From contig JAIOIE010000021.1 in the NCBI GenBank assembly GCA_019912665.1, positions 135,679-199,678 on the forward strand: a DNA stretch of 64,000 nucleotides. Direction: 5' to 3'. The notes beneath the pieces were generated by a model, which made no database searches, was not told the DNA's origin, and saw only the letters and a program-made list of their open reading frames with translations. The stretch is from Deltaproteobacteria bacterium. GTDB taxonomy: Bacteria; Desulfobacterota; GWC2-55-46. Made by a program: the position numbers and the translations under genes. Of this stretch, positions 10,377 to 44,305 are shown one piece after another (position 1 is the first letter of the stretch; each line of letters opens with the position of its first letter).

Positions 10377-11999
10377 TCAACACACCCCGCACCGCGTGCA
10401 CTTTCCCACGATACACGGCGGAGTCGTCTTTCCGGCAAGCCCCTTCTGATACTCCTTCCAGAAATAGTCCTTATTGACCCCGTGGTCTATTATGTCCCAG
10501 GGTAATACTTCGTCCCTGCTTCTTGCATGGTATACCGACTCCATGATAAACCCCTCTTTCCCTTTTATCGCCCTCTTCCAGCCCTTTTGAGAAGCCGCCT
10601 CGATTATTTCTCCGGCCCTCCTGTCCGCCCTTGAAAGATAGGCCTGCACGAATGCCTCTTTTGCCGGCATGTCCCTCACGGTTATCCCAGCCTTCCCCAG
10701 GGCCTTATTCAAAGTCCGCTGTCTCCCCTCGATGACCTCAAGGGGGGCGAACGGGTGCCACTGGAAAGGGGTGCACGGCTTCGGGACAAAAGGATTGACG
10801 CTAAGGTTGACCTCCCCGCCCTTAAGCGCCTTTCTTATATTAATCGAAAGGTCGATTATGCCCTGGACGTCCTCGTCTGTCTCTCCGGGGAGGCCGAGCA
10901 TGAAATAGAGCCTTACCCTCCTGAACCCGGCCTCGCTTATGAGACGGACCGCCTCCATTATGTCCGCGTCCGTGATGCCTTTATTTATTATGTCCCTCAT
11001 CCGCTCGGTCCCGGCCTCGGGCGCAAGTGTCATGGTCCTGTAGCCGGCTTCCCTGAGTAGCGCAAGGAACTCTTCGTCAAGCTCATCCAGCCTGAGCGAT
11101 GAAAGTGTGACGGTCGTTTCCTTCCCAATGCCCTTTTTAAGGAGTTCCTTTATCTCCGGGTACTCGGAAACCGCCGCGCCGACAAGCCCCACCTTCCCGG
11201 CCCTTTCAATGCCTTCGTCCATAGCCTTTGCCACGGCCCCGCTTTCGCGCATCCGGGGCGGGAGGTACAGGAACCCTGCGGCGCAGAACCTGCACCCCTT
11301 GCCGCAGCCGCGCTCGACCTCCAGGCAATATGTCTCCTTGAACTCGGTATCGGGCGCATAGACGAAGCTACGCGGGACAGGGAGCCCGTTAACATCAACC
11401 GCCTTGGCCGCCTTTACAACGGGCTTTGCGCCCGGCCTGGGGCTTATCCCTGCTACGGCCGCCCCGTCATAGGTGAAATCATAAAAGGAGGGCACGTAGA
11501 CCCAGTCGAACGAGTCGAGTGCATCGAGCGTTTCTTCCCTGCCCCGGCCCAACTCAATTCCGTGCTTGAGCATACGAAGGACCGGCCCTAACACGCCCTC
11601 GGCCTCGCCTATCAGAAAGAAATCCACGAAGTCGGCAATCGGCTCAGGGTTTAGCGAAACCGCCACACCGCCCGCGGCTATAAGCGGCCCCTGCCCCTGC
11701 CTTTCAGCGGCCCTGGGGTTTATGCCGGCGAGCCTCAATATTCTTATGAAATTGGCGTAATCCTCTTCAAAGGGGATTGCGAAGGCTATTACGTCGAAAT
11801 CCGCTAACTGTTTCTGCGACTCGTAGGAGAGTAGCGTTGTAGCGGTCCTCTCATGTTCGAGGAGGGCGTCTTTATCGGGCAGGAAGGCCCTCTCGCATAC
11901 GCAGTCGTCTACATCGTTAGCTAGCATGTAGACCGACTGGAAGCCCAGGTTAGCCATGCCGACGCTGTACGTGTTCGGATAGACGAGGGCAAGCCTCAG
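10377..11999 (-). CDS. Radical SAM protein, paralog of the TIGR03960-like enzyme (no DUF2344 domain); start codon uncertain
   Basis: The ORF track gives 10377..11957 (526 aa) with the motif ERGCGKGCRFCAAG. The conserved N-terminal block LRLALVYPNTYSVG lies upstream of that ATG, in a frame with no ATG/GTG/TTG. Candidate starts are CTG at 11999, or ATT/ATA further upstream (to about 12035). Confidence 0.7.
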   Translation of the reverse strand: MRLALVYPNTYSVGMANLGFQSVYMLANDVDDCVCERAFLPDKDALLEHERTATTLLSYESQKQLADFDVIAFAIPFEEDYANFIRILRLAGINPRAAERQGQGPLIAAGGVAVSLNPEPIADFVDFFLIGEAEGVLGPVLRMLKHGIELGRGREETLDALDSFDWVYVPSFYDFTYDGAAVAGISPRPGAKPVVKAAKAVDVNGLPVPRSFVYAPDTEFKETYCLEVERGCGKGCRFCAAGFLYLPPRMRESGAVAKAMDEGIERAGKVGLVGAAVSEYPEIKELLKKGIGKETTVTLSSLRLDELDEEFLALLREAGYRTMTLAPEAGTERMRDIINKGITDADIMEAVRLISEAGFRRVRLYFMLGLPGETDEDVQGIIDLSINIRKALKGGEVNLSVNPFVPKPCTPFQWHPFAPLEVIEGRQRTLNKALGKAGITVRDMPAKEAFVQAYLSRADRRAGEIIEAASQKGWKRAIKGKEGFIMESVYHARSRDEVLPWDIIDHGVNKDYFWKEYQKGLAGKTTPPCIVGKCTRCGVC

Positions 12000-12266
12000 C
12001 TTTCCTCCGTGCTCCTTGTAGGCGGTCCCGCGCTCGATTGAGAGCGCCTCCCTTATCTTTTTTTTAATGGACCAGGATATTGTGCTGCCTCCGGGCGATA
12101 ATACAAAGCATCCTTGAAATTATCCCATAGCGGTGGCGGGTTTACAAGGCGGGAAGGAGGGCAGGCCGCGCCCTCTGGGAAAAGCAGGCGAGGGCGCGGC
12201 GAAAGAACCCGGAATCGATTCTGTCCTTTTCTTATTACGGCCACAGCCTCTTCCGGCGGGCAAACA

Positions 12267-12404
12267 GCAACTCTGAAAATTAGAGATTTTTCCCGCAATC
12301 AAGGAAGGCCGGGAATAAAAAGCGGAGCATATATTAATAATATATGAGCATTTTTATTCCCGTAACTACGCAGAGTCCGGGAAAAAGATCAATTTTTAAG
12401 GTCA
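12267..12404. repeat. MITE-like nested palindromic repeat, full copy 2
   Basis: A 59-nt stretch (AAAATTAGAGATTTTTCCCGCAATCAAGGAAGGCCGGGAATAAAAAGCGGAGCATATAT) is identical to copy 3 by my reading. The right end overlaps the ftsZ stop codon (12402-12404). Confidence 0.75.
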
Positions 12405-20157: not shown

Positions 20158-21258
20158 TCAGGCCTCGTTTTCCCTGATGTAGATATTGAGCAATATCCCG
20201 ACGGCTATGAGGTTCACCATGAGCGCCGTTCCGCCGTAGCTTATAAACGGGAGCGGCAGCCCCTTCGGGGGCAGAAGCCCCATGACGACCCCCATGTTCA
20301 TGGCGGCCTGGAAGACTATCATGAAAGTGAGGCCCAGGGCCAGGTACTGGCCATGGAGGTCCTTTGCCTTTAGCGCAACCTTTATCCCGCAGACGAGTAT
20401 CACGACAAAAAAGGCCGCGACGCCGGCAACGCCTATGAGGCCCAGCTCTTCCCCTATGACCGAGAGTATGAAATCCGTATGCGCCTCGGGCAGGAAAAAG
20501 AGCTTCTGCCTGCCTTCGCCGAGACCCACGCCGTACAGCCCGCCGGAGCCGAAGGCGAGGAACGACTGTATCATCTGGAAGCCCTTGCCCTCAGGGTCTT
20601 TCCAGGGGTCGACGAAGATCATTATCCGGTCCATCATGTACTTGAAATTGTGCACCACGAACCAGAGGCCGAGGCCCAGGAGAGCGAGAGAGCCGAGTAT
20701 GTACCTGAGCCTTACGCCCGCCGCGAATATCATAAGAAATACAATGGAAGCGAGCGCGAGCGAGGTGCCGAGGTCCGTCTCGAACATGATGAGCCCGATT
20801 ATCACGCCGGGTATGAGCACGTTCGGGAGGAAACCCGGGGAAAAGGTCTTTATGAGGTCCTTCTTGGCCGCGAGCGAATACGCGAGGAAGAATATGACCG
20901 CAAGCTTCGCCGGCTCCGAAGGCTGGAAGGCGAGAGGGCCGAGCCTTACCCACCTCCGGGCTCCTCCGGCAGAGAAGCCTATGCCCGGTATGTAAATGAA
21001 TACCAGGAATATGGCGGCCAGTATGAGTATGGGGTAGGCCATCTTTTTATAGACGACATAGGGCACCCTGGAGGCGGCTATCATCATGACGACCCCGGCC
21101 AGGGCGTACGTCAGATGCTTCTTCACGAAGAAGTACTCGTCGCCGAACCTCTTCATCGCCACCACGTAGCTCGTGGAATAGACCATCACCACCCCGAAGA
21201 CCACGAGGAGAAGGGTCGAGATTATGAGGACCCTGTCTATGTCCTTTATCTTTATCAG
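20158..21258 (-). CDS. ftsW: Cell division/peptidoglycan polymerase FtsW (SEDS family); non-canonical start inferred
   Basis: The ORF track starts at GTG 21204, which falls inside predicted TM1 (..LLLVVFGVVMVYSTS). The upstream in-frame sequence (L)[17 protein letters not shown] has no ATG/GTG/TTG. Candidate starts are CTG at 21258 or ATA at 21255, the latter with GGAGG 7 nt upstream. Confidence 0.85.
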   Translation of the reverse strand: MIKIKDIDRVLIISTLLLVVFGVVMVYSTSYVVAMKRFGDEYFFVKKHLTYALAGVVMMIAASRVPYVVYKKMAYPILILAAIFLVFIYIPGIGFSAGGARRWVRLGPLAFQPSEPAKLAVIFFLAYSLAAKKDLIKTFSPGFLPNVLIPGVIIGLIMFETDLGTSLALASIVFLMIFAAGVRLRYILGSLALLGLGLWFVVHNFKYMMDRIMIFVDPWKDPEGKGFQMIQSFLAFGSGGLYGVGLGEGRQKLFFLPEAHTDFILSVIGEELGLIGVAGVAAFFVVILVCGIKVALKAKDLHGQYLALGLTFMIVFQAAMNMGVVMGLLPPKGLPLPFISYGGTALMVNLIAVGILLNIYIRENEA

Positions 21259-22649
21259 AGGGCCTCCACGAGCGACCTGAACCGCTCGCCCCTTTCCTTG
21301 TAGTCCCTGAACATGTCGAAGCTCGAGCAGGCAGGGGAAAGGAGTATCGTATCGCCGGGAAGGGCGTTTTTATGCGCCGTCGCAACCGCCTCCTCGAAAG
21401 ACTCCGCGAGGACCGTCCGGCTGAATCCACCGAGGGCCTTCTCTATCTTGGGCCTGGCCTCTCCGATGAGGACCATGAGCTTCACCTTTTCCTTTATGAG
21501 ATCCGCGAGTACGCCGTAGTCTCCGCCCTTGTCAACACCGCCGGCTATTAGCACCACCGGGCCCTTTAACCCCTTAAGCGCCATCATGAGCGCGCCGACG
21601 TTAGTGCCCTTGGAGTCGTCTATGTAGGTGATCCCGCCGAGTTCCCTCACGACCTCCATCCTGTGGTGGAGGCCCGTAAACGAGGAGAGCGCGGCCAGAA
21701 CAGCCTCCCTATTGGCGCCGGAAAGCCGCGCAGACGCTATGACCGCCATGACGTTCTCGATGTTATGGAGCCCTTTGAGCCTGATGCCGCTTATCGGGTA
21801 CTCCTCCCTTGAGCCGTCATGCCGGAAGACTATATAGCCGCCGTCCAGAAAGAGCCCTTCATCCAAACTGCCTTCTATGGTGAACGGCACGGCCCTTCCG
21901 CACCCGAGGAGGCCCGCCCTTCCGGTTATTGCCGGGTCGTTCGCGTTATAGACCGCGAAGTCTCCCGCGGCCTGGTTCTCGAATAGCCTGAACTTGGTCT
22001 CCGCGTAATGGCCGAAGTCCCTGTACCTGTCGAGGTGGTCGTCGGTAATATTCAACAGCGCCCCCACGCGGGGCCTGAAATGCCTCGTCGTCTCGAGCTG
22101 GAAACTGGAGACCTCAAGCACGATAAAGTCCGCGCCTCCGCCGTTCTCGACGTACTCAATCGCGGGGGTCCCTATATTTCCGCCGACGAAAGCAGAGAAG
22201 CCCGCCTTTTTCATTACTTCCCCGAGGAGGGCGGTAGCGGTCGTCTTCCCGTTGGTCCCGGCTATGGCGAGGACAGGGGCGTCCATGAACCTCCACGCGA
22301 GCTCTATCTCGCTTATGACCTCGGCCCCGTTCTCTCTTGCCCGCTCAAGGAGCGGCAGGTCCGAAGGCACCCCCGGGCTTACGACCACGAGGTCTACCCC
22401 GTCGAGGCCTACACCGTCGTGGCCCCCTGCCCTTACATTGACCCCCATTGAAAGGAGGCTATTAACCCCCTCTATCTTTCCAGCCTCTTTCGAGTCGGTC
22501 GCGATCACGCTGGCGCCGGAGCTACGGAGAAACCTGGATACCGAAATGCCGGTTCTGCCGAGCCCGACCACGACCGCGCTTTTCCCTTCGAGGAACGCCT
22601 TCGCGGCGGCAATAGAGTCTCCTTTCATAACGGCGCTCCGTATCATCAT
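21255..22649 (-). CDS. murD: UDP-N-acetylmuramoylalanine--D-glutamate ligase
   Basis: Motifs seen are [10 protein letters not shown] and GTNGKTT. The likely start is the ATG at 22649, which forms an ATGA overlap with the mraY stop. The ORF-track start at 22733 lies inside mraY. Confidence 0.93.
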
Positions 22650-33661: not shown

Positions 33662-34035
33662 AGCCGGAGGCTGCCGTAAGCCGGATTCTGTTCCCGGTAA
33701 AAACCGGGCGGCGGCCATTCGTCTAGGCCTGCCGTTGCCGGCAGGCTCGAGCGGCCAACCCGTTCCGCCCTCCCGAAGGAAAAGGACGGGCAGTCCTTGA
33801 TGCGGAACCTATTTGGCCTTGCACCGGGAGGGGGTTGCCAAGCCCTGCCGGTCACCCGGCAGGCTGGTGGGCTCTTACCCCGCCTTTTCACCCTTACCGC
33901 CCTTTCGGGCGGCGGTATCTTTTCTGTGGCCCTGTCCCTGGGGTCGCCCCCGGTCGCCGTTAGCGACCTCCCTGCCCTGTGGTGTCCGGACTTTCCTCCG
34001 GCCCGAAGGCCGGTGGCCGCCCGGCAGCCTCCGGC
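33662..34035 (-). ncRNA. rnpB: RNase P RNA, bacterial type A
   Basis: The minus strand carries GGAGGAAAGTCCGGAC (P4 5' strand), GGTAAGGGTGAAAAGG, GCAAGGCCAAATAGG and ACAGAATCCGGCTTAC (P4 3' strand). The ends form a P1 pairing, CCGGAGGCTGCCG/CGGCAGCCTCCGG, followed by a T-run. Confidence 0.93.
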
Positions 34036-34683: not shown

Positions 34684-35415
34684 CTATACGGCCTCTAATT
34701 CGGCCTGGGGCAGCTCGGCGTACAGGAGCCGGTGGCAGTGGGGGCAGGAATGGATCTCTTCGGTGCCTTTCTTAAGCATTATGAAGATCTGCGGGGGGAT
34801 GTGAGTGAAGCAGCCCTGGCATATCTCTTCCTTTACAAGCACAAGCCCAAGGCCGCCCCTCCGGGACCGAATCATCTCGTATTTCCTCATTATATCCGGC
34901 CTGATGGGCGCCTTCTTCTCGTCTCTTGACTTAAGCTTTTCTTCCTGGGCCGACCTCCAGCCGTCCTTTTTGGCCTCGAGCTCGCCTGAGAGCCTGTCGA
35001 ATTCTTCCTGCCGGACCCGGAGCTCCTCTTTTTTAGCGGCAAGCGCCGCCTCTTTATCCTGGACCTTTGTCATAAGGGCGGCCTTCTCCTGCTCGCCCTG
35101 CTTTCTGGACTTGTTGGCGCCGTTTATCTCTTTTGTAAGCGCGTTGAGCTCCCTGTCGTTCTTGACGGAGTTGAGCCTGCCTTCGTCCTTCGATATCCTC
35201 TCGGCGCTCTCCCGTATCCTGTCCTCGATGCCCTTGAGCTGCTCCTTGAGGCCGGCTAGCTCCTCTTCGAGGACGGCTGCCGATTTTCCGATCCCTTCGA
35301 GCTCGGCCCCGAGCCCCTCCATCCTGCCCAGGTATTCCTTTTCCTCTTCATCCAGGGACTTTATCTCAAGGTCTATCCGCTGTATCTCTTCGAGGACTCT
35401 CAACGTCTCTATCAA
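34684..35415 (-). CDS. COG1579/DUF164-type coiled-coil zinc-ribbon protein
   Basis: It has a long coiled coil and a C-terminal CQGC...CPHC zinc ribbon. The ORF-track start at 35454 overlaps the tRNA. The TTG at 35415 with GGAGG 7 nt upstream is the likelier start. Confidence 0.75.
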   Translation of the reverse strand: MIETLRVLEEIQRIDLEIKSLDEEEKEYLGRMEGLGAELEGIGKSAAVLEEELAGLKEQLKGIEDRIRESAERISKDEGRLNSVKNDRELNALTKEINGANKSRKQGEQEKAALMTKVQDKEAALAAKKEELRVRQEEFDRLSGELEAKKDGWRSAQEEKLKSRDEKKAPIRPDIMRKYEMIRSRRGGLGLVLVKEEICQGCFTHIPPQIFIMLKKGTEEIHSCPHCHRLLYAELPQAELEAV

Positions 35416-35442: not shown

Positions 35443-35518
35443 TGGTGGGCCCACCTGGACTCGAACCAGGGACCGACCGGTTATGAGCCGGTGGCTCTTC
35501 CAACTGAGCTATGGGCCC
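35443..35518 (-). tRNA. tRNA with CAT anticodon (Met, or Ile2/lysidine type)
   Basis: The minus strand reads GGGCCCATAGCTCAGTTGGAAGAGCCACCGGCTCATAACCGGTCGGTCCCTGGTTCGAGTCCAGGTGGGCCCACCA. It is 76 nt with encoded CCA and a cloverleaf that folds by eye. The C4-G69/C5-G68 acceptor pairs resemble tRNA-Ile2. Confidence 0.9.
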
Positions 35519-44130: not shown

Positions 44131-44272
44131 GGCAACCTCTAAAAATTAGAGATTTTTCCCGCAATCAAGGAAGGCCGGGAATAAAAAGCGGAGCATATAT
44201 GACAATATGTGAGCATTTTTATTACCGGCCTGACGCAGAGTCCGGGGAAAAGATCAATTTCTGGAGGTTGTC
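44131..44272. repeat. MITE-like nested palindromic repeat, full copy 3
   Basis: The terminal inverted repeats are GGCAACCTCTAAAAATT / AATTTCTGGAGGTTGTC (14 of 17 complementary). Inner inverted repeats are GATTTTTCCCG/CCGGGGAAAAGATC and CCGGGAATAAAAA/TTTTTATTACCGG. TGGA is found on both flanks. Confidence 0.75.
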
Positions 44273-44305
44273 TGGATAAAATCGCCCTCCGGACGGCTTA
44301 AATAT

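What the first reader, a model, noticed from the sequence alone, without database searches (positions are those of the whole stretch)
21204..21270. ftsW lacks any ATG/GTG/TTG at the position its conserved N-terminus requires; GGAGG-N7-ATA is present
The longest canonical ORF starts at GTG 21204, giving MVFGVVMVYSTS. That begins inside the first transmembrane helix of a SEDS protein.

The in-frame upstream sequence (L)[23 protein letters not shown] looks like a normal FtsW N-terminus. It contains no ATG, GTG or TTG back to the preceding in-frame TAA. Directly after the murD stop the sequence is GGAGG-CCCTCTG-ATA-AAG. That places an ATA codon 7 nt after a perfect Shine-Dalgarno sequence, with a CTG one codon earlier.

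The same GGAGG-N7-ATA arrangement recurs at the second radical SAM gene (about 12026). GGAGG-N7-TTG marks the likely COG1579 start at 35415. This implies non-canonical initiation (ATA or CTG) or two independent G-to-A base errors.
Basis: partly seen in the sequence, partly recalled or inferred. Interest (0 to 1): 0.5.

Follow-up and report, generated by a model that had tools for sequence, protein, structure and literature searches.

The report
ftsW starts at a CTG codon
The cell-division gene ftsW here has lost its normal start codon (TTG became CTG) in a whole clade of uncultured bacteria yet still encodes its full N-terminus, so it is a genuine but ordinary rare-start-codon gene, not a sequencing error and probably not an ATA start.

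Summary
In the ftsW frame (minus strand) there is no ATG, GTG or TTG between an upstream TAA and GTG 21204. GGAGG (21267-21263), N7 and ATA (21255-21253) are present.

The emphasis on ATA is not supported by homology. About 100 of the 120 best FtsW homologs listed are 366 aa, one residue longer than an ATA start would give. In nine close relatives the codon aligned with CTG 21258-21256 is the start: TTG in eight loci and GTG in one, always overlapping the murD stop (NTGA). Two more distant relatives have ATG before the same Ile codon, without the murD overlap. The window carries a T-to-C change at that base, which is synonymous in murD. ATA is the conserved Ile codon 2.

Base error is excluded. 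A second assembly is 100% identical over 21.6 kb. Two other lineages, each seen in three samples, also carry CTG. The CTG sequences form one clade. Codons 2-18 show 0-1 differences, all synonymous, against 13-25% fourfold-site divergence elsewhere in the gene. A GenBank protein of 366 aa already matches a CTG start.

The best reading is near-cognate initiation at CTG, or possibly at the adjacent ATA, probably coupled to murD termination. Separately, the radical SAM gene does appear to start at ATA 12080. This is a known kind of feature and of modest interest.

The parts
21256..21258 (-). CTG, the codon homologous to the ftsW start codon of relatives. It overlaps the murD stop as CTGA.
   Evidence: Aligned with TTG in L081, L161-L167 and L179, GTG in L001, and ATG in L004 and L005. 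CTG is also present in L168 and L173-L178.
21253..21255 (-). ATA, codon 2 (conserved Ile) of ftsW. It is a possible alternative near-cognate start and shares its A with the murD TGA.
   Evidence: Codon 2 is ATA in 8 of the 9 TTG-start loci and in L001, and ACA in L161. GGAGG lies 7 nt upstream.
21263..21267 (-). GGAGG Shine-Dalgarno-like motif inside the 3' end of murD (codons Val-Glu-Ala).
   Evidence: GAGG, GGGG or GGAGG is kept at this place in the relatives.
21255..21257 (-). murD stop codon TGA.
20158..21258 (-). ftsW coding sequence: 366 codons plus stop if started at CTG.
   Evidence: TIGR02614 scores 400.5 bits against a cut-off of 337.5, matching residues 8-360. About 100 of the 120 best homologs listed are 366 aa. 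It equals P0241 / MBZ0220783.1 with M at position 1.
21202..21204 (-). GTG, the first canonical triplet in frame. It is an internal Val19 within transmembrane helix 1 and not the start.
   Evidence: No SD-like motif lies upstream. Codons 2-18 upstream of it are under coding constraint.
21255..22649 (-). murD coding sequence. Its ATG at 22649 overlaps the mraY stop as ATGA.
   Evidence: Called as 464 aa in L168.
10377..12080 (-). B12-binding-type radical SAM gene whose likely start is ATA 12080-12078. This is a second non-canonical start in the window.
   Evidence: The conserved N-terminal ISWSIKKKIRE lies upstream of the first canonical ATG 11957. The relative L180-L182 has ATT at the same codon, and sequence conservation begins exactly there.
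12088..12092 (-). GGAGG, 7 nt upstream of ATA 12080.
   Evidence: The relative has GGAG 8 nt upstream of its ATT.

Best explanation
FtsW is made as a full-length protein of about 366 residues. Translation starts at the near-cognate codon CTG 21258-21256. An ancestral TTG start, overlapping the murD stop as TTGA, mutated to CTG in the common ancestor of a small clade of uncultured Desulfobacterota-type bacteria. The change is synonymous in murD (CTT to CTC, towards the preferred Leu codon).

Initiator tRNA is inferred to read CUG with a first-position mismatch. It would be helped by the GGAGG 4 nt upstream and by ribosomes terminating murD on the overlapping UGA (termination-reinitiation coupling). 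That would give a low but sufficient supply of a protein needed in small amounts.

Shown here:
- the position of the homologous start codon;
- the reality and clade-wide fixation of CTG;
- continued coding constraint on the N-terminus.

Inferred:
- that CUG rather than the adjacent AUA is the codon used;
- that coupling contributes.
For: 1. About 100 of the 120 best homologs listed are 366 aa and cover 100% of a query that starts at ATA. They are therefore one residue longer. Their N-termini read M/L-I-K/R-x-K/R-D-x-D-R.
2. At the DNA level, TTG sits exactly where the window has CTG in L081, L161-L167 and L179, and GTG in L001, always as NTGA with the murD stop. The more distant L004 and L005 have ATG before the same Ile codon, without the murD overlap.
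3. CTG is reproduced in an independent ENA contig that is 100% identical over 21,581 bases. It is also found in two other lineages, L173-L175 and L176-L178, from six sequencing runs.
4. The CTG sequences are monophyletic and nested among TTG relatives. ftsW nucleotide identity is 92-95% within the clade and 88-90% to the nearest TTG sequences.
5. Within the clade, codons 2-18 differ at 0-1 of 51 nt, always synonymously. Fourfold sites in the rest of the gene differ by 13-25% (P from 7e-3 to 3e-7). The rest of the gene shows 39-71 synonymous against 11-15 non-synonymous codon changes.
6. GTG 21204 has no SD and would delete FtsW model positions 1-11.
7. A 4-nt GGAGG spacing is used by ordinary genes in the window, namely ATG 39499 and GTG 63884.
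8. GenBank protein MBZ0220783.1 (P0241, 366 aa, MIKIKD...) equals the CTG-started translation.
9. [quoted passage not shown] Four-nucleotide stop/start overlaps support termination-reinitiation coupling (PMC6728339; PMC12548453).
Against: - There is no direct evidence of initiation: no proteomics or ribosome profiling, and the organism is uncultured.
- The adjacent ATA is also near-cognate, has the more typical 7-nt SD spacing, and sits in the other classical overlap geometry (UGAUA, like UGAUG). Sequence cannot tell the two apart.
- An SD plus CUG does not guarantee use in vivo. The Caulobacter dnaA upstream CUG gave a toeprint but was not functional (PMC8443254).
- Any mutation of the C would restore a canonical start at no cost to murD. 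Its retention in three lineages is not itself evidence of selection for CTG.
- The lineage comparisons share ancestry, so the P-values are not independent.
Confidence: 0.6

Rival explanations
1. Initiation is non-canonical but uses ATA 21255-21253 (codon 2). This would give a 365-residue FtsW.
For: - GGAGG lies 7 nt upstream, in the middle of the 4-8 nt range used by genes in the window.
- ATA shares its A with the murD UGA, the analogue of the common UGAUG overlap (overlap types in PMC6728339).
- AUA and CUG have similar strength in E. coli.
- A neighbouring gene very probably uses ATA.
Against: - ATA is codon 2 (Ile) in relatives that have a canonical start one codon upstream, so it did not arise as a start.
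- The only change at the junction that coincides with the origin of the CTG clade is TTG to CTG.
Confidence: 0.22
2. Translation starts at a downstream canonical codon (GTG 21204, GTG 21189 or ATG 21186), as Prodigal-type callers assume. This would give an FtsW of 342-348 residues lacking the cytoplasmic N-terminus and half of transmembrane helix 1.
For: - These are the only canonical triplets in frame.
- Public gene calls of 342, 344 and 347 aa exist for this clade.
- Truncated calls also occur in more distant lineages: P0064, P0067, P0076 and P0116.
Against: - No SD-like motif precedes GTG 21204.
- The 51 nt upstream stay under strong coding-type constraint after the start codon changed.
- The FtsW family model starts 11 residues upstream of Val19.
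- The truncated calls arise because those callers allow only ATG, GTG and TTG.
Confidence: 0.1
3. The CTG, or the ATA, is a base-calling or assembly error. The real genome has TTG or ATG.
For: It is a single-base difference from the nearest relatives. Read data could not be inspected.
Against: - The same base occurs in an ENA contig at about 76x coverage (figure taken from the contig name) that is identical over 21.6 kb.
- It also occurs in six further assemblies of two diverged lineages.
- The 342-aa call identical to the window (P0245) is recorded on six contigs.
- The ancestral codon 2 is ATA, so no G-to-A error is needed.
Confidence: 0.01
4. FtsW is made as a MurD-FtsW fusion by a programmed -1 frameshift near the end of murD, so no start codon is needed.
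For: The ftsW frame is the -1 frame of murD. It is open for 38 codons upstream of CTG in the window and in L176.
Against: - There is no X XXY YYZ slippery heptamer in the last 150 nt of murD.
- The upstream open stretch is only 14 codons in clade member L173, and 3 codons in some TTG relatives.
- Relatives clearly use a separate start at this position.
Confidence: 0.02
5. ftsW is decaying in this clade. The start was lost and function was taken over by another SEDS protein.
For: Loss of a canonical start is a common first step in pseudogenisation.
Against: - The reading frame is intact at 366 codons in all three lineages.
- Synonymous changes far outnumber non-synonymous ones (67:12, 71:15, 39:11).
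- The dcw cluster is otherwise intact.
Confidence: 0.02

Closest known systems
Near-cognate bacterial start codons (CTG, ATT, ATC and ATA of genetic code table 11; classic example E. coli infC AUU, cited from own knowledge)
   Same: A single mismatch to the initiator anticodon, an SD upstream, and low expected efficiency (1-2% of AUG in E. coli; 10.1101/063800). The GenBank protein MBZ0220783.1 matches a call from this CTG.
   Different: Here the codon is fixed in a clade, in an essential division gene, and sits in a 4-nt overlap with the upstream stop. No autoregulatory logic like that of infC is evident. Use of the codon is not shown experimentally.
ATGA/GTGA/TTGA stop-start overlaps with termination-reinitiation coupling (Huber et al. 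2019, PMC6728339; review PMC12548453)
   Same: The same geometry (NTGA), the same strand, an SD inside the upstream gene, and an operon of functionally linked genes (murD-ftsW). Other dcw junctions in the window show the same overlap with ATG: mraY/murD, and murE/murF and ftsL/ftsI by coordinates.
   Different: The overlapping start is CTG, which those studies did not test. Coupling itself was not testable here.
TTG-start ftsW of sister lineages (L161, L179, L081, L162-L167)
   Same: Orthologous gene, the same murD-ftsW-murG context, the same 366-residue product, and the same SD region.
   Different: One base: T in those lineages, C in the window clade.
Natural start-codon variants that tune expression (E. 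coli 8178 lactose operon, PMC11445065; Listeria general stress-response/Rsb genes, PMC13068326; seen in title and abstract only)
   Same: A point mutation in a start codon changes expression and is kept in natural populations.
   Different: Those cases have experimental phenotypes. No phenotype or expression data exist here.

Membership tests
Gene with a near-cognate (non-canonical) start codon | No ATG, GTG or TTG in frame at or upstream of the conserved N-terminus | tested here: met
   None lies between TAA (38 codons upstream) and GTG 21204. The same holds in L173 and L176.
Gene with a near-cognate (non-canonical) start codon | The near-cognate codon aligns with the start codon of orthologs | tested here: met
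   CTG 21258 aligns with TTG in 9 loci including L179, GTG in L001, and ATG in L004 and L005. About 100 of the 120 best homologs listed are 366 aa.
Gene with a near-cognate (non-canonical) start codon | Shine-Dalgarno-like motif at workable spacing | tested here: met
   GGAGG lies 4 nt before CTG and 7 nt before ATA. Spacings of 4-8 nt are used by canonical genes in the window.
Gene with a near-cognate (non-canonical) start codon | The segment between the near-cognate codon and the first canonical codon evolves as coding sequence | tested here: met
   0-1 synonymous differences in 51 nt, against 13-25% fourfold-site divergence elsewhere.
Gene with a near-cognate (non-canonical) start codon | The base is real (reproduced independently) | tested here: met
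   L168 is identical over 21.6 kb. CTG is present in six other assemblies.
Gene with a near-cognate (non-canonical) start codon | Initiation at that codon is demonstrated (N-terminal peptide, toeprint or start-site profiling) | not testable with these tools
   No expression data are available and the organism is uncultured.
Translationally coupled overlapping gene pair (termination-reinitiation) | Stop and start codons overlap by 4 nt or 1 nt on the same strand | tested here: met
   CTGA: the start candidate is 21258-21256 and the stop is 21257-21255. ATA shares the A of TGA.
Translationally coupled overlapping gene pair (termination-reinitiation) | Downstream translation depends on upstream translation | not testable with these tools
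   This needs reporter constructs with a premature murD stop.
FtsW (SEDS family lipid II polymerase/flippase of the divisome) | Matches the FtsW equivalog model above its curated cut-off | tested here: met
   TIGR02614 scores 400.5 bits against a cut-off of 337.5, with residues 8-360 on model positions 1-354 of 357.
FtsW (SEDS family lipid II polymerase/flippase of the divisome) | dcw-cluster position between murD and murG | tested here: met
   Gene order runs mraY-murD-ftsW-murG-murC-murB-ddl-ftsQ-ftsA-ftsZ.
Programmed -1 ribosomal frameshift fusion | Slippery heptamer X XXY YYZ in the upstream frame before its stop | tested here: not met
   None occurs in the last 150 nt of murD.
ATA/ATT-start radical SAM gene (second case in the window) | The conserved N-terminus lies upstream of the first canonical codon, and the near-cognate codon sits at the 5' edge of conservation with an SD | tested here: met
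   - ISWSIKKKIRE is conserved across homologs.
- The window has GGAGG-N7-ATA and L180-L182 have GGAG-N8-ATT, with a TAA 6 codons upstream.
- The 60 nt upstream are 23% identical, while downstream the genes are collinear for 567 codons.
- P0158 has M at this position.
- Four Logan assemblies are identical to the window here.

The most novel reading that the evidence does not exclude
This lineage tolerates near-cognate start codons at an unusually high rate. Two of about 55 genes in one 64-kb window use CTG or ATA, a sister lineage uses ATT, and many radical SAM homologs are called only from an internal Met. The cause could be relaxed start-codon discrimination (for example an altered IF3 or initiator tRNA anticodon stem) or heavy reliance on termination-reinitiation. 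If so, gene callers restricted to ATG, GTG and TTG would systematically truncate proteins in these genomes.
Probability: 0.12. Interest if true: 0.6.

Novelty: new member of a known kind. Interest (0 to 1): 0.3.

Why it matters
The main consequence is for annotation. The same FtsW N-terminus is on record as 366, 355, 347, 344 and 342 residues in public databases, depending on the caller. The shorter versions cut into the first transmembrane helix.

It is also a clean natural example of a start codon degraded from TTG to CTG and then kept through species-level divergence in an essential gene. This happened at a site where every possible mutation would restore a canonical start without cost to the overlapping gene. 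That suggests a CTG in a stop-start overlap can supply enough FtsW.

Together with the ATA/ATT-start radical SAM gene, it gives a testable hint that near-cognate initiation may be more common in this lineage than standard callers allow.

Tried and rejected
- **Exact look-up of the 348-aa GTG-started product.** It is not on record. The public calls turned out to be 342, 344, 347, 355 and 366 aa, hidden inside the 90% cluster of P0001.
- **Genome and metagenome scans with FtsW.** Most of the 160 loci were too distant. Only L081 and L001-L005 were useful. The close relatives came from exact-protein look-ups instead.
- **A third candidate, ATA 44276 with GGAGG-N8.** Rejected, because the protein begins MMKKIRLSELEKGMYV at ATG 44306.
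- **NCBIfam screen of 19 stop-to-stop ORFs for further hidden N-termini.** None was convincing. The small upstream overhang for ftsI was judged alignment slack, because its ATG overlaps the ftsL stop.
- **murD start.** Gene callers differ (452-464 aa), but every locus has ATGA with the mraY stop, so nothing is non-canonical there.
- **The window's only tRNA as a possible initiator.** Its anticodon is CAT but it has a G1-C72 pair, so it is not the initiator. The relaxed-initiation idea could not be tested this way.
- **-1 frameshift fusion.** No slippery site was found.
- **Motif enrichment of GGAGG-N7-ATA.** Not above chance.
- **Ancestral start of the radical SAM gene.** The DNA of P0122, whose M aligns with the window's TCG 12098, could not be fetched because the look-ups were exhausted.
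Full report
**1. What is in the sequence**

ftsW lies on the minus strand in a complete dcw cluster running from mraZ to ftsZ. murD ends with TGA at 21257-21255.

In the ftsW frame the codons read ...GGA GGC CCT CTG(21258) ATA(21255) AAG ATA AAG GAC.... The frame is open for 38 codons upstream of CTG, back to a TAA. It contains no ATG, GTG or TTG until GTG 21204, which is Val19.

GGAGG occupies 21267-21263. That is 7 nt before ATA and 4 nt before CTG.

The motif count is not itself significant. GGAGG-N7-ATA occurs 3 times in the window against 2.2 expected. A run of 17 coding codons without a canonical triplet has P of about 0.4.

**2. Where the homologous start is**

A search starting from ATA (365 aa) returned a long list of FtsW proteins. 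About 100 of the 120 best are 366 aa with 100% query coverage, so they are one residue longer than the query. Their N-termini read M/L-I-K/R-x-K/R-D-x-D-R-hydrophobic helix.

I fetched the DNA of the closest relatives and lined up the murD/ftsW junction.
- L081, L161-L167 and L179 have TTG exactly where the window has CTG.
- L001 has GTG at that position.
- In all ten of these loci the start overlaps the murD TGA as NTGA.
- The more distant L004 and L005 have ATG before the same Ile codon, but no murD overlap.

ATA is the second codon (Ile) in nearly all of them. The window therefore differs from its relatives by T to C at the first base of the start codon. In murD that change is a synonymous CTT to CTC, towards the commoner Leu codon (903 against 449 uses).

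The NCBIfam FtsW model starts at residue 8 of the CTG-started protein. A GTG 21204 start would remove conserved positions.

**3. Is the C real?**

The radical SAM protein of the window (P0121) is on record, which opened access to independent assemblies. An ENA contig (L168; 367 kb; about 76x coverage by its name) is 100% identical to the window over 21,581 bases, including the CTG.

The 90% cluster that contains the window's FtsW holds several versions of the same N-terminus:
- 366-aa proteins from TTG/ATG-type starts;
- the GenBank entry MBZ0220783.1, which equals the window's protein started at CTG with Met;
- calls of 355, 347, 344 and 342 aa.

The DNA behind the 342-aa calls came from two further lineages, each seen in three sequencing runs (L173-L175 and L176-L178). 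All carry CTG ATA AAG ATA AAG at the junction.

A neighbour-joining tree of ftsW places the three CTG lineages in one clade. Identity is 92-95% within the clade, and it is nested among TTG sequences at 88-90%. This fits a single substitution that became fixed and then persisted. Base error is excluded.

**4. Is the N-terminus still translated?**

Within the CTG clade, fourfold-degenerate sites in codons 19-366 differ by 13-25%. The 51 nt of codons 2-18 differ at 0-1 positions, and always synonymously (P from 7e-3 to 3e-7 against a neutral expectation; the pairs are not independent).

The rest of the gene shows strong purifying selection. Synonymous to non-synonymous codon changes are 67:12, 71:15 and 39:11.

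GTG 21204 has no SD-like motif. A truncated FtsW or a decaying gene is therefore unlikely.

A -1 frameshift fusion with MurD has no support either. There is no slippery heptamer, and the upstream in-frame stop lies only 14 codons away in L173.

**5. Mechanism**

The best reading is near-cognate initiation by initiator tRNA at CUG. The GGAGG would assist; a 4-nt spacing is also used by ATG 39499 and GTG 63884. Ribosomes terminating murD on the overlapping UGA would also assist.

In E. coli, CUG, AUA, AUC and AUU initiate at about 1-2% of AUG, and 0.02-3% across constructs. [quoted passage not shown] Four-nucleotide overlaps support termination-reinitiation coupling in bacteria (PMC6728339; PMC12548453).

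The family already uses the weak TTG, which fits a protein needed at low copy number.

The adjacent ATA remains a live alternative. It has the better SD spacing and sits in the UGAUA geometry, which mirrors the common UGAUG overlap. Sequence alone cannot decide between them.

One caution applies. An SD plus CUG that toeprints in vitro was not used in vivo in Caulobacter dnaA (PMC8443254).

**6. The recurrence claim**

The second radical SAM gene is called from ATG 11957 (526 aa). Its homologs carry a conserved N-terminus, (I)SW-x-[IL]-KKK-x-RE. In the window this lies in frame upstream of that ATG, with no canonical start back to TAA 12122.

GGAGG-N7-ATA is at 12092-12078, not at about 12026.

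A relative at 86% identity (L180-L182, three samples) has GGAG-N8-ATT at the same codon and an in-frame TAA six codons upstream. The 60 nt upstream are only 23% identical to the window. From the ATA/ATT onward the two genes are collinear for 567 codons.

One distant homolog has Met at this position (P0158). Four Logan assemblies are identical to the window here.

This gene very probably starts at ATA in the window and at ATT in the relative. The TTG at 35415 is an ordinary start.

**7. How general is it?**

A third SD-plus-ATA candidate at 44276 was rejected. A screen of 19 stop-to-stop ORFs against NCBIfam found no further hidden N-termini.

Two near-cognate starts among about 55 genes is more than my recollection of well-annotated genomes would predict. 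I could not reach the rest of the genome, IF3 or the initiator tRNA. The only tRNA in the window has a CAT anticodon and a G1-C72 pair, so it is not the initiator. A lineage-wide relaxation therefore remains a low-probability possibility.

**8. Verdict**

This is a real non-canonical start, fixed in a clade. However, the homologous start codon is CTG, not ATA, and there is no base error.

The feature belongs to a known kind, and a matching 366-aa protein is already in GenBank. Its main value is as a correction to inconsistent annotation, and as a tidy natural case of a start codon degraded from TTG to CTG inside a stop-start overlap. Interest is modest.

Noticed in passing
window 10377-12092 (-): The radical SAM gene is called from ATG 11957, but its conserved N-terminus lies upstream. 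The likely start is ATA 12080 with GGAGG-N7. A relative (L180-L182) has ATT with GGAG-N8 at the same codon. Many homologs are called only from the internal MANLGF Met (525-526 aa), which hints that this family often lacks a canonical start.
   Followed up: partly
window 12271-12395, 44137-44260, partial copy 816-872: An intergenic repeat of about 125 nt (98% and 86% identity between the two halves of the two copies). It folds into one long imperfect hairpin (-41.7 kcal/mol, z = -6.6), so it resembles a small palindromic mobile or REP-like element. There is no credible Rfam match.
   Followed up: partly
whole window; tRNA at 35443-35518 (-): - In a 57% G+C genome, ATA is the commonest Ile codon (653 of 1140) and AGG the commonest Arg codon (809 of 1444).
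- The one tRNA in the window has anticodon CAT and a paired G1-C72 end. It is an elongator Met or a lysidine-type Ile tRNA, not the initiator.
   Followed up: no
public records of the window's FtsW clade (P0241-P0252): The same N-terminus is annotated in five ways:
- 366 aa, from CTG;
- 355 aa, from codon 12, which is ATA in the DNA of L173;
- 347 aa, from GTG at codon 20;
- 344 aa;
- 342 aa.

The result depends on the pipeline.
   Followed up: yes
FtsW homologs P0064, P0067, P0076, P0116 (60-71% identity): These more distant FtsW proteins are called 9-16 residues short and start inside transmembrane helix 1. They may be further independent losses of a canonical start, or simply caller choices. 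Their DNA was not fetched.
   Followed up: no
window 44263-44278 (+): GGAGG-N8-ATA lies 10 codons upstream of the HD-domain regulator gene. It is a chance match, because the protein's N-terminus begins at ATG 44306.
   Followed up: yes
window 33662-34032 (-): Bacterial RNase P RNA class A (303 bits). ORFs listed over this region are spurious.
   Followed up: no
record names of L168 and P0241: The same genome segment is labelled Desulfobacterota UBA5799 in ENA, Candidatus Methylomirabilis sp. in one NCBI record, and Deltaproteobacteria bacterium in nr. The taxonomic labels conflict, and the Methylomirabilis label looks like a binning or naming problem.
   Followed up: no
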